64,000 nucleotides of DNA from Escherichia phage vB_EcoS_AKFV33, in sequence record NC_017969.1; one strand, written 5' to 3'. Each line of letters begins with the position of its first letter. The stretch's first letter is position 1. Positions 1,293 through 1,375 of the stretch are shown one piece after another. Both the position numbers and the translations under genes were made by a program. The notes beneath the pieces were generated by a model that was not told the origin of the DNA, ran no database searches, and was given only the letters and a program-made list of their open reading frames with translations.

Positions 1293-1375
1293 TGGCGGGC
1301 CGTGTAGGATTCGAACCTACGTTGTCTTTCGACATGGATTAACAGTCCACCGCCAAACCGCTTGGCTAACGACCC
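1293..1375 (-). tRNA. type II tRNA (long variable arm), anticodon loop CTGTTAA (GTT)
   Basis: acceptor GGGTCGT/ACGGCCC, T-loop TTCGAAT, 13-nt variable arm GTCGAAAGACAAC; loop is one base from a Tyr-type CTGTAAA loop. Confidence 0.45.

What the first reader, a model, noticed from the sequence alone, without database searches (positions are those of the whole stretch)
1293..1375. Type II (long-arm) tRNA whose anticodon loop reads GUU
The fold has a 13-nt variable arm typical of Tyr/Ser/Leu tRNAs, but the loop is CTGTTAA (GUU, an Asn anticodon), one base from the CTGTAAA of the bona fide tRNA-Tyr at 2459-2549. It may be a diverged paralog with altered decoding.
Basis: seen in the sequence. Interest (0 to 1): 0.5.

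Follow-up and report, generated by a model that had tools for sequence, protein, structure and literature searches.

The report
Phage asparagine tRNA with extra arm
This is a real asparagine tRNA gene of a T5-like phage that carries a short extra hairpin normally seen only in leucine, serine and tyrosine tRNAs; well over a hundred different phage asparagine tRNAs share this oddity, which may help them escape bacterial enzymes that cut host tRNAs.

Summary
Window 1293-1375 (- strand) is an 83-nt tRNA with anticodon GUU, G73, an encoded CCA and a 13-nt variable region forming a 3-bp helix capped by GAAA. The interpretation as a diverged tRNA-Tyr paralog with altered decoding is not supported. 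Similarity to the window's tRNA-Tyr is at background level, G73 excludes Tyr and Leu identity, and the anticodon stem-loop matches E. coli tRNA-Asn at 15 of 17 positions. The gene belongs to a large family of tRNA-Asn(GUU) found almost only in phages. It is the commonest allele in T5-like phages, with relatives in Straboviridae, rV5-like and phiKZ-like phages. At least 144 distinct sequences come from phage records and viral metagenome contigs. The arm covaries and is GNRA-capped in about 58%. It is nearly absent from cellular genomes. T5 itself has an ordinary class I tRNA-Asn in the same slot. I infer an Asn-charged decoder whose arm alters the face bound by tRNA-cutting defence nucleases such as PARIS AriB. 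Published rescue data for phage Bas33, which carries long-arm Asn and Thr(UGU) tRNAs, fit this but do not prove it. Serylation (Asn-to-Ser recoding) is not excluded. No description of this family was found.

The parts
1293..1375 (-). tRNA-Asn(GUU) gene, 83 nt, with encoded CCA at 1293-1295 and discriminator G73 at 1296
   Evidence: ARAGORN. Rfam tRNA 59 bits. Cloverleaf minimum-free-energy fold. Identical sequence in more than 200 phage records.
1339..1345 (-). Anticodon loop CUGUUAA, with anticodon GUU at 1341-1343. The flanking 5-bp stem lies at 1346-1350 and 1334-1338 (GUGGA/UCCAU).
   Evidence: It matches E. coli tRNA-Asn at 15 of 17 positions, the two differences forming one compensated pair, 28:42 C-G to U-A. 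The AriB site U36-A-A-U-C|C41 is retained.
1321..1333 (-). 13-nt variable region. The extra arm GUC-GAAA-GAC lies at 1324-1333 (3 bp plus a GNRA tetraloop), followed by three unpaired nucleotides AAC at 1321-1323, the last being C48.
   Evidence: Minimum-free-energy fold. Compensatory changes across phage families: GUC/GAC, GUUC/GAAC, GUCA/UGAC, AUCC/GGAU, GGC/GCC. Family-wide covariation and GNRA enrichment.
1352..1366 (-). D arm GCCA-AGCGGUU-UGGC. It has C16 and no nucleotide 17, where E. coli tRNA-Asn has U16 C17.
   Evidence: In tRNA-Lys, a U16-to-C change impairs AriB cleavage (PMC12409363).
1382..1456 (-). tRNA-Cys(GCA), lying 6 nt upstream of tRNA-Asn on the same strand. It is part of the phage tRNA cluster.
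   Evidence: The same Cys-Asn order is seen in T5 and relatives.
1218..1292 (-). Conserved tRNA-like RNA immediately downstream. It corresponds to T5 'rna3, putative tRNA-like RNA' and ends in ACCA.
   Evidence: T5 annotation and an identical flank. The fold has z = -3.15, and 0 of 200 shuffles fold as well.

Best explanation
This is a working phage tRNA that reads the asparagine codons AAC and AAU and is most likely charged with asparagine by the host AsnRS. It carries the whole known Asn identity set (G34, U35, U36, G73) on an anticodon stem-loop copied from the host tRNA-Asn. What sets it apart is a compact extra arm in the variable region, a 3-4 bp helix usually capped by a GNRA tetraloop, often accompanied by a class-II-like D arm. 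This architecture defines a large family of tRNA-Asn found almost only in phages. My best inference is that the arm and the altered D loop reshape the face running from the 3' strand of the anticodon stem to the D loop. Dimeric TOPRIM tRNases such as PARIS AriB dock on that face; AriB cuts host tRNA-Asn between nucleotides 40 and 41. On this reading the phage copy survives while host tRNA-Asn is destroyed, and the anticodon arm needed by AsnRS, the ribosome and modification enzymes stays unchanged. T5 reaches the same end by a different route, a class I tRNA-Asn with a mutated cleavage site. Shown here: the gene, its fold, its identity elements, family-wide covariation, restriction to phages, and allelic replacement at one locus. 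Inferred: charging with Asn, and nuclease evasion as the reason for the arm. I put about 0.8 on Asn identity and about 0.4 on the evasion role.
For: (1) It is a genuine tRNA with GUU, G73 and an encoded CCA, set in a phage tRNA cluster.
(2) The anticodon stem-loop matches E. coli tRNA-Asn at 15 of 17 positions here and 17 of 17 in CHI14, nepoznato and both phiKZ-like tRNAs. The anticodon plus G73 are the established AsnRS determinants (PMC9976931).
(3) The family is large. In the phage database, 533 records have a match covering at least 80% of the 83-nt query. In 230 phage loci, 144 of 196 distinct Asn(GUU) tRNAs carry an arm of at least 3 bp.
(4) G73 is present in 92/95 and 78/85 sequences. 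U1-A72, typical of bacterial tRNA-Asn and the GatCAB determinant, is present in 62/95, and U1 in 63/85.
(5) The arm is under selection. The three pairs next to the GNRA loop are paired in 62, 63 and 58 of 66 sequences, each with four or more pair types, against partner-shuffle means of 27-37. GNRA loops occur in 55/94 against 0.9 expected.
(6) It is almost absent from cells. There is no match in 5,426 E. coli genomes. There are only 17 long-arm examples in 185,579 species genomes, 11 of them inside dense tRNA arrays.
(7) The same slot in T5-like phages holds alternative alleles. The window type is in 283 records, the atrejo long-arm type in 49, and the T5 class I type, with a changed 39-41 site, in 136.
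(8) Published experiments fit. [quoted passage not shown] Bas33 encodes a long-arm Asn and a long-arm Thr(UGU) of the same architecture and no Lys(UUU), yet supplying T5 tRNA-Lys alone rescues it from PARIS. Plasmid-borne Bas33 Thr(UGU) strongly counteracts the OLD tRNase (bioRxiv 10.64898/2026.07.10.737580).
(9) In PHZ191 the tRNA is 100% identical although its flanks are about 78% identical.
Against: There is no direct aminoacylation or cleavage test of any long-arm tRNA-Asn.
The arm is not needed for escape. Class I phage tRNAs (T5 Asn, and T4 and Bas32 Thr) also resist or rescue.
tRNA-Lys(UUU), the prime target of AriB and PrrC, almost never carries an arm (2/77). A general anti-nuclease device would therefore have to be limited by isotype-specific constraints.
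The Bas33 argument is indirect. T4 and T7 do not need extra tRNA-Asn at all.
From textbook structural knowledge, not tested here: class II synthetases such as the AspRS/AsnRS group approach the tRNA from the variable-loop side, so an extra arm could hinder AsnRS.
A long arm plus G73 plus G1-C72 and G2-C71 also resembles the SerRS recognition set.
Confidence: 0.42

Rival explanations
1. The arm is a structural or biogenesis aid, or a tolerated inherited feature, with no role in defence evasion. A GNRA-capped mini-helix could stabilise the folded core of a rapidly made, under-modified phage tRNA. It could help processing of tightly packed tRNA precursors. Or it could be a neutral insertion that spread with mobile tRNA clusters. 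The tRNA is still an ordinary Asn decoder.
For: Extra arms also occur at low frequency in other class I isotypes in the same phage loci (Cys 21%, Thr UGU 14%, Lys CUU 8%). Conversely, only 46-58% of phage tRNA-Leu(UAA/UAG) keep their arm. This suggests that class I/II architecture is simply fluid in phage tRNA clusters. Class I alleles work equally well in the same slot. A short-variable-loop tRNA-Leu has been noted in a mycobacterial tRNA cluster (PMC6582537).
Against: A neutral insertion would not keep base pairing through 45 different stem sequences, nor a 60-fold GNRA enrichment. The strong concentration in Asn is unexplained. Stabilisation does not explain why cells almost never use the arm.
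Confidence: 0.22
2. The arm is a handle or self-mark for a phage-encoded factor. Candidates are a tRNA-binding protein such as the YqeY-like protein encoded nearby, a modification enzyme, or a phage nuclease that destroys host tRNAs but must spare the phage's own.
For: GNRA loops are classic protein and RNA docking motifs (general knowledge). A weak YqeY-like ORF lies at 6562-6996 (-); its T5 counterpart in the equivalent position is annotated 'tRNA amidotransferase'. The family is confined to large virulent phages with tRNA clusters.
Against: No protein is known to be shared by T5-like, T4-like, rV5-like and phiKZ-like phages that correlates with the arm. T5 has the same YqeY-like gene but a class I tRNA-Asn. 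Bas33 long-arm Thr(UGU) works from a plasmid in cells infected by unrelated phages such as HK97, so at least that long-arm tRNA needs no cognate phage factor.
Confidence: 0.12
3. The tRNA has dual or altered identity. The long arm plus G73, G1-C72, G2-C71 and C11-G24 make it a substrate of host SerRS, so it inserts serine at asparagine codons. That would be programmed Asn-to-Ser mistranslation, analogous to nematode nev-tRNAs or allo-tRNAs.
For: SerRS ignores the anticodon and relies on the variable arm, G73 and the acceptor pairs (PMC9976931; PMC5389517). The window tRNA has G73, G1-C72, G2-C71 and C11-G24. GNRA-capped arms are typical of phage tRNA-Ser (49/80) and rare in tRNA-Tyr (1/53). 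nev-tRNAs set the precedent (PMC3333845).
Against: The window arm (13 nt, 3 bp) is shorter than all 80 tRNA-Ser arms in the same loci (14-23 nt, mostly 5-7 bp), and is Tyr/Leu-sized. [quoted passage not shown] The anticodon arm and G73 are kept exactly as AsnRS needs them. In most of these phages it is the only tRNA-Asn, and it is the majority allele in T5-like phages. From memory only (Himeno 1990, not readable here): the 3-bp arm of tRNA-Tyr is not enough for SerRS.
Confidence: 0.08
4. One reading: a diverged paralog of the phage tRNA-Tyr, or another class II tRNA, whose anticodon mutated from GUA to GUU. It would be charged with Tyr or be non-functional.
For: The anticodon loops differ by one base (CUGUUAA against CUGUAAA). 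Both have a 3-bp extra arm followed by three unpaired nucleotides.
Against: Identity to the window tRNA-Tyr is at background level, 0.60. G73 replaces the A73 required by TyrRS. The backbone's nearest neighbours are all tRNA-Asn. GUU and G73 are conserved in hundreds of relatives. The gene is more conserved than its flanks.
Confidence: 0.02

Closest known systems
Bacterial (E. coli) tRNA-Asn(GUU), a class I tRNA
   Same: Both have anticodon GUU, loop CUGUUAA and G73. The 17-nt anticodon stem-loop is nearly identical, 15 of 17 positions here and 17 of 17 in several relatives. The T loop UUCGA and the G15:C48 combination are shared.
   Different: The host tRNA has a 5-nt variable loop, a GUUC/GAAC D stem with U16 C17, and U1-A72. 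The phage tRNA has a 13-nt variable region with a GAAA-capped helix, a different D arm (C16, no nucleotide 17) and G1-C72. Nothing like it occurs in 5,426 E. coli genomes.
[quoted passage not shown]
   Same: It occupies the same genomic slot with the same 3' flank in a T5-like tRNA cluster, and has the same anticodon, G73 and CCA. The expected role is the same: replacing host tRNA-Asn cut by AriB.
   Different: T5's gene is a 78-nt class I tRNA whose anticodon stem is changed at the AriB site (G39 U40 U41 instead of U39 C40 C41). The window tRNA keeps the host-like site and instead adds an arm and alters the D loop. Only the T5 allele has been tested.
Bas33 (HildyBeyeler) long-arm tRNA-Thr(UGU) and long-arm tRNA-Asn
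   Same: The architecture is the same: a class I isotype carrying a 3-4 bp GNRA-capped extra arm followed by 3-4 unpaired nucleotides, in a T5-like tRNA cluster. Bas33 Thr(UGU) works as a counter-defence tRNA against OLD. With only Lys supplied, Bas33 survives PARIS.
   Different: The tested molecule is a different isotype (Thr). The Bas33 Asn allele is the 86-nt atrejo type, 79% identical to the window's. Neither paper mentions the arm, and the arm's contribution was not isolated.
Bacterial class II tRNAs (Tyr, Leu, Ser)
   Same: The variable region is at least 10 nt and forms a stem-loop. Arm size (13 nt, 3 bp) is like Tyr and Leu. GNRA capping is like Ser. In 66% of the family, though not in the window tRNA itself, 13:22 is unpaired as in class II D arms.
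   Different: The anticodon belongs to a class I isotype. G73 excludes Tyr and Leu identity. The arm is shorter than any tRNA-Ser arm in the same loci. No sequence ancestry from Tyr or Ser is detectable.
nev-tRNAs of nematodes (PMC3333845) and bacterial allo-tRNAs (PMC5389517)
   Same: [quoted passage not shown]
   Different: nev-tRNAs derive from tRNA-Leu and are charged with Leu. Allo-tRNAs have 8/4 or 9/3 acceptor/T-stem geometry and Ser or Ala identity. Here the geometry is the canonical 7/5, the body is not Leu- or Ser-derived, and the identity elements fit the anticodon. The expected result is normal decoding, not recoding.

Membership tests
tRNA (Rfam RF00005) | Cloverleaf with acceptor, D, anticodon and T arms that scores above the gathering threshold | tested here: met
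   59.0 bits against a gathering score of 29, E = 3.6e-11, full-length model match. ARAGORN call. Cloverleaf minimum-free-energy fold.
tRNA-Asn isoacceptor (AsnRS substrate) | Anticodon G34 U35 U36 | tested here: met
   Loop CUGUUAA, with GUU at 1341-1343. These are identity elements according to PMC9976931.
tRNA-Asn isoacceptor (AsnRS substrate) | Discriminator G73 | tested here: met
   G at 1296. G73 is present in 92/95 and 78/85 family members.
tRNA-Asn isoacceptor (AsnRS substrate) | Actual aminoacylation with asparagine | not testable with these tools
   This needs an in vitro charging assay or analysis of the native aminoacyl-tRNA.
Class II (long-arm) tRNA architecture | Variable region of 10 nt or more that forms a base-paired arm | tested here: met
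   13 nt, GUC-GAAA-GAC plus AAC. Pairing is supported by covariation.
Class II (long-arm) tRNA architecture | Three-bp D stem with an unpaired 13:22 | tested here: not met
   The window tRNA has A13-U22 and can form a 4-bp D stem. In the family, 13:22 is paired in only 34%, against 80% of class I phage tRNA-Asn.
Class II (long-arm) tRNA architecture | Isotype is Leu, Ser or Tyr (or Sec) in bacteria | tested here: not met
   The anticodon is GUU (Asn).
Bacterial tRNA-Tyr | A73, and U35 within a GUA anticodon | tested here: not met
   It has G73 and GUU. Determinants are from PMC9976931. G73 is listed there as an antideterminant against TyrRS and LeuRS.
Bacterial tRNA-Ser (SerRS substrate) | Long variable arm of Ser-like length and orientation | tested here: inconclusive
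   An arm is present, but at 13 nt and 3 bp. The 80 tRNA-Ser in the same loci have 14-23 nt, with stems mostly 5-7 bp. Orientation cannot be computed here.
Bacterial tRNA-Ser (SerRS substrate) | G73 with G1-C72 and G2-C71 | tested here: met
   The window tRNA has all three. About two thirds of the wider family have U1-A72 instead.
nev-tRNA / allo-tRNA type recoding tRNAs | A body derived from tRNA-Leu or tRNA-Ser, or 8/4 or 9/3 geometry, with identity elements that disagree with the anticodon | tested here: not met
   The geometry is 7/5. The backbone's nearest neighbours are tRNA-Asn, and non-Asn matches are at background level. The identity elements agree with the anticodon.
Phage counter-defence tRNAs (nuclease-resistant copies of targeted host tRNAs) | Phage-encoded isoacceptor of a host tRNA known to be cut by a defence nuclease | tested here: met
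   E. coli tRNA-Asn(GUU) is an AriB target (PMC12409363). The gene lies in a T5-like tRNA cluster.
Phage counter-defence tRNAs (nuclease-resistant copies of targeted host tRNAs) | Differences from the host tRNA at nuclease contact sites | tested here: inconclusive
   The cleavage-site sequence U36-C41 is unchanged. The D loop has C16 and no nucleotide 17, and U16C impairs AriB cleavage of tRNA-Lys. The extra arm lies between the two contact sites (inference).
Phage counter-defence tRNAs (nuclease-resistant copies of targeted host tRNAs) | Demonstrated resistance to cleavage and rescue of infection | not testable with these tools
   There is only indirect support from Bas33.

The most novel reading that the evidence does not exclude
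The long-arm tRNA-Asn is a dual-identity molecule. Its arm, G73, G1-C72 and G2-C71 let host SerRS charge a fraction of it, so that infected cells insert serine at some asparagine codons. That would be a phage-programmed Asn-to-Ser recoding or statistical mistranslation, carried by hundreds of phage lineages.
Probability: 0.07. Interest if true: 0.85.

Novelty: new variant of a known kind. Interest (0 to 1): 0.6.

Why it matters
Textbook rules say that in bacteria only the Leu, Ser, Tyr and Sec tRNAs carry a long variable arm. This gene shows that phages break that rule systematically. Asparagine tRNAs with a compact, covarying, GNRA-capped arm are the majority allele in T5-like phages. They also occur in T4-like, rV5-like and phiKZ-like phages and in many uncultured ones. 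Cells almost never have them.

The same loci contain long-arm Thr(UGU) and Cys tRNAs, and tRNA-Leu that has lost its arm. So tRNA architecture, and not only anticodon-loop sequence, appears to be a variable that phages exploit.

This bears on an active question: how phage tRNAs defeat tRNA-cutting immune systems such as PARIS, OLD, PrrC and retron-Eco7. It gives directly testable predictions through arm deletion and arm grafting, followed by cleavage and charging assays.

It also bears on synthetase biology, namely whether a class IIb enzyme tolerates an extra arm, and on the design of orthogonal or nuclease-proof tRNAs. It may also explain puzzling published rescue results, for example Bas34, whose tRNA-Asn gene appears broken.

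Tried and rejected
1. A tRNA-Tyr or tRNA-Ser origin. I tested this by pairwise alignment with all window tRNAs and with E. coli Asn, Tyr and Ser, and by nearest-neighbour search with the anticodon and variable arms masked. Only background similarity appeared, so I rejected it.

2. A host origin. A blastn search of 5,426 E. coli genomes gave no significant match; the best hit had E about 0.7, to tRNA-Lys.

3. A normal cellular tRNA of some other bacterial group. The pattern scan of 185,579 species genomes gave 64 hits. Only 17 are long-arm tRNA-Asn, mostly inside tRNA arrays or on MAG contigs.

4. A direct experimental test of the long-arm allele in the literature.
- Bas34's tRNA-Asn turned out to be a long-arm-type gene with a broken acceptor stem and a C32U change, so it is uninformative.
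- Bas32's tRNA-Thr is class I.
- SP15 tRNA-Asn was used only as a negative control against PrrC170.
- Only Bas33 gave usable, indirect evidence.

5. Literature search for a prior description. Nine full-text searches were run. One of them only located a known paper, and the last was badly built and useless. None found a description of long-arm phage tRNA-Asn. The key phage-tRNA papers contain no occurrence of the word 'variable'. The library lacks most subscription journals, so this is not proof of novelty. Himeno 1990 could not be read.

6. Relative frequency of long-arm versus class I tRNA-Asn in IMG/VR.

7. Promoter scan around the gene. Matches were at chance level.

8. Whether long-arm copies keep a host-like anticodon stem while class I copies change it. 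This is not testable for metagenomic contigs because the hosts are unknown. The first scan was also biased by its pattern.
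Full report
**1. The observation**

ARAGORN finds 11 tRNA genes in the window, all on the - strand. 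One is tRNA-Asn (gtt) at 1293-1375, 83 nt long, with the anticodon at position 33. Rfam's tRNA model matches 1296-1375 end to end at 59.0 bits (E = 3.6e-11) and places a 10-nt insertion in the variable region.

The RNA reads GGGUCGU-UA-GCCA-AGCGGUU-UGGC-G-GUGGA-CUGUUAA-UCCAU-GUCGAAAGACAAC-GUAGG-UUCGAAU-CCUAC-ACGGCCC-G-CCA. Its minimum-free-energy fold is the full cloverleaf plus an extra hairpin, GUC-GAAA-GAC, followed by AAC (-30.5 kcal/mol, z = -2.3).

The tRNA-Tyr used for comparison is also real (2459-2549).

**2. Genomic context**

The window comes from a T5-like phage (Demerecviridae). The 500 bases around the gene match hundreds of Salmonella and Escherichia T5-like phages, and the feature is annotated there as tRNA-Asn. 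The gene lies 6 nt downstream of tRNA-Cys, in the usual T5 order Tyr-Glu-Trp-Phe-Cys-Asn-Asp-Lys. The 83-nt sequence is at least 99% identical in 206 phage records.

**3. It is not a tRNA-Tyr paralog**

- Global identity to the window's tRNA-Tyr is 0.60. That is at or below the identity to unrelated tRNAs in the window (0.57-0.67).
- With the anticodon and variable arms masked, the closest backbones among 1,336 distinct tRNAs are all long-arm tRNA-Asn (42-50 of 51 positions).
- The best non-Asn matches score 36-40 of 51 and are a mix of Lys, Ser, Trp, Ile and Tyr.
- The discriminator is G73. The identity review lists G73 as an antideterminant against TyrRS and LeuRS, and A73 as essential for both (PMC9976931).
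- The 17-nt anticodon stem-loop differs from E. coli tRNA-Asn only by one compensated pair, C28-G42 to U28-A42. It is identical to E. coli's in the CHI14, nepoznato and phiKZ-like relatives.
- I verified the E. coli sequence against 5,425 genomes.
- The anticodon plus G73 make up the whole experimentally defined AsnRS identity set.

**4. The family**

The same kind of gene, 83-87 nt with GUU and G73, occurs in unrelated phage groups:
- T5-like phages, including Proteus phage Stubb;
- Straboviridae (Serratia CHI14, Klebsiella and Enterobacter Slopekvirus-like phages);
- Marfavirus;
- rV5-like Phapecoctavirus;
- Pseudomonas phiKZ-like jumbo phages.

Their extra arms differ by compensatory changes: GUC/GAC, GUUC/GAAC, GUCA/UGAC, AUCC/GGAU and GGC/GCC. 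The loops are GAAA, GCAA or UUAG.

Even so, in 230 phage loci they yielded 196 distinct Asn(GUU) tRNAs, of which 144 have an extra arm of at least 3 bp. Their acceptor stems, D arms and, in the second scan, anticodon stems are very diverse.

Family features:
- G73 is present in 92/95 and 78/85 sequences.
- U1-A72 is present in 62/95, and U1 in 63/85. This is the usual first pair of bacterial tRNA-Asn and the GatCAB determinant.
- The typical arm has 0-1 unpaired nucleotide, then 3-4 bp, a tetraloop, and 3-4 unpaired nucleotides.
- GNRA loops occur in 55/94, against 0.9 expected from shuffles, with a maximum of 4 in 200 shuffles.
- The three pairs next to the GNRA loop are paired in 62, 63 and 58 of 66 sequences, each with four or more pair types. 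Partner shuffles give means of 27-37 and maxima of 42-48.
- Position 13:22 is paired in only 34% of long-arm Asn, against 80% of class I Asn. That is a shift towards class-II-like D arms, although the window tRNA itself has A13-U22.

**5. Restriction to phages**

No significant match exists in 5,426 complete E. coli genomes. In one genome for each of 185,579 bacterial and archaeal species, the pattern found 64 places. Only 17 are long-arm tRNA-Asn, and 11 of those sit in arrays of 7-36 tRNA genes within 8 kb. Examples are Micromonospora, Verrucosispora and several MAG contigs, and this layout is typical of mobile tRNA arrays.

**6. Alleles in T5-like phages**

T5 itself carries, in the same slot and with the same 3' flank, a 78-nt class I tRNA-Asn. 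Its anticodon stem is changed to G39 U40 U41.

| Allele | Records at 90% identity or more |
|---|---|
| Window type (long arm) | 283 |
| Atrejo type (long arm, 86 nt) | 49 |
| T5 type (class I) | 136 |

The long-arm form is therefore the commoner state. In PHZ191 the tRNA is 100% identical although the surrounding 450 bases are about 78% identical.

**7. Link to defence systems (from papers)**

[quoted passage not shown] It cuts between nucleotides 40 and 41, within U36-A-A-U-C|C41 for Asn. T5's Lys, Thr and Asn tRNAs together neutralise PARIS. In the AlphaFold 3 model the second AriB monomer faces D-loop U16-U17, and a U16C change impairs cleavage of tRNA-Lys (PMC12409363).

The window tRNA keeps the cleavage-site sequence. 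It differs by having C16, no nucleotide 17, and an extra helix that emerges between those two contact regions. T5's allele instead changes the site itself. This suggests two alternative escape routes at one locus. That is my inference.

**8. Indirect experimental support**

Bas33 (HildyBeyeler) encodes an 86-nt long-arm tRNA-Asn and an 87-nt tRNA-Thr(UGU). The Thr variable region, A-GGA-GUAA-UCC-CGUU, has the same architecture. Bas33 has no tRNA-Lys(UUU).

Supplying T5 tRNA-Lys(UUU) alone rescues Bas33 from PARIS, whereas T7 needs Lys plus Thr. So Bas33's own long-arm Thr, and presumably its long-arm Asn, must function and survive AriB.

Plasmid-borne Bas33 Thr(UGU) also gives strong counter-defence against the P2 OLD TOPRIM tRNase. 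Class I Thr tRNAs from T4 and Bas32 do the same, while T5's gives only partial rescue (bioRxiv 10.64898/2026.07.10.737580).

Two conclusions follow. A long-arm version of a class I isotype is a working decoder. The arm is not required for resistance. Neither paper mentions the arm.

Bas34's tRNA-Asn is a long-arm-type gene with a disrupted acceptor stem and a C32U change. That may explain why Bas34 needed T5 tRNA-Asn in that study.

**9. The serine question**

SerRS ignores the anticodon. It uses the variable arm, G73 and the acceptor pairs G1-C72 and G2-C71. The window tRNA has all of these, plus C11-G24.

Several points argue against serylation:
- The arm (13 nt, 3 bp) is shorter than every one of 80 tRNA-Ser arms in the same loci. 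Those span 14-23 nt with a median of 18, and their stems are mostly 5-7 bp. The window arm matches Tyr and Leu arm sizes.
- Two thirds of the family have U1-A72.
- The Asn identity set is strictly conserved.
- It is usually the phage's only tRNA-Asn.

I put serylation at about 7-8%.

**10. Weak points of the evasion model**

- No long-arm tRNA-Asn has been tested.
- tRNA-Lys(UUU), the main nuclease target, almost never has an arm (2/77).
- Arms appear at 21% in Cys(GCA), at 14% in Thr(UGU) (none in 30 Thr CGU/GGU), and at 8% or less elsewhere.
- Only 46-58% of phage tRNA-Leu(UAA/UAG) keep their arm.
- tRNA architecture in phage clusters is therefore generally fluid, and a structural, processing or phage-factor role remains possible.
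- From general knowledge, class IIb synthetases approach the tRNA from the variable-loop side. That could explain why the arms are kept so short, but it could also count against efficient charging.

**11. Novelty**

The gene is routinely annotated as tRNA-Asn, so the gene itself is known. I found no description of the long arm or of the family. The main phage-tRNA papers contain no occurrence of the word 'variable'. The searchable library is incomplete, so an earlier mention cannot be excluded.

I classify it as a new variant of a known kind: a phage counter-defence or supplementary tRNA with a class-II-like architecture.

Noticed in passing
window 3426-3502 (-): tRNA-Leu(UAA) is only 77 nt, with a 5-nt variable loop and A73. 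It is a class I-shaped leucine tRNA, the mirror image of the long-arm Asn. In 230 phage loci only 46-58% of distinct tRNA-Leu(UAA/UAG) have an extra arm. A short-loop tRNA-Leu was noted in a mycobacterial tRNA cluster (PMC6582537).
   Followed up: partly
L295 9775-9861 (Bas33); L023 4406-4492; L108 8998-9084: T5-like phages carry an 87-nt tRNA-Thr(UGU) with a GGA-GUAA-UCC extra arm. It is in about 100 phage records at 90% identity or more, including L6jm, a close relative of the window phage. Thr(UGU) is a prime target of the AriB and OLD tRNases.
   Followed up: partly
IMG/VR loci, e.g. L060 345-428, L062 13818-13901, L063 1324-1407 (Cys); L025 1347-1430, L067 4387-4473 (Trp): GNRA-capped extra arms also occur in phage tRNA-Cys(GCA) (8/39), tRNA-Trp(CCA) (4/59) and a few other class I isotypes.
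   Followed up: partly
L196 8605-8681 (Bas34, SelmaRatti MZ501103): Bas34's annotated tRNA-Asn is a long-arm-type gene with a C32U change and a 3' acceptor strand that no longer pairs, so it looks like a pseudogene. This may explain why Bas34 needed T5 tRNA-Asn for rescue from PARIS in PMC12409363.
   Followed up: partly
window 1218-1292 (-): This is a conserved 75-nt RNA directly downstream of tRNA-Asn, corresponding to T5 'rna3, putative tRNA-like RNA'. It folds into an acceptor-like stem with two hairpins, ends in ACCA, and has z = -3.15. Its function is unknown.
   Followed up: partly
window 6376-6447 (-) and 4011-4085 (-): Rfam finds two further tRNA matches that ARAGORN did not call. One is a CAU-anticodon tRNA (Met or Ile2 type) at 38.2 bits. 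The other is a tRNA-like sequence with an aberrant anticodon arm at 35.5 bits.
   Followed up: no
window 6562-6996 (-): A 144-aa ORF gives a weak YqeY (GatB tail-domain-like) hit, E = 0.0025, below the Pfam cut-off. In T5 the gene in the equivalent position, just beyond tRNA-Arg and rnaX, is T5.081, annotated 'tRNA amidotransferase'; I did not align the two. It may be a tRNA-binding accessory protein next to the tRNA cluster.
   Followed up: no
L018, L057, L060, L063, L076, L088, L092, L098, L200, L213, L268, L275 and others: Many uncultured phage contigs encode both a long-arm and a class I tRNA-Asn(GUU), often adjacent and usually with different anticodon stems. The reason for this redundancy is unexplained.
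   Followed up: no
L134, L135, L144, L184 (Micromonospora and Verrucosispora chromosomes): Actinobacterial tRNA arrays with 23-36 tRNA genes in 8 kb contain 89-90-nt tRNA-Asn with 4-6 bp arms capped by GGAA, GUAA or GCAA. These are cellular or mobile-element members of the same architecture.
   Followed up: no
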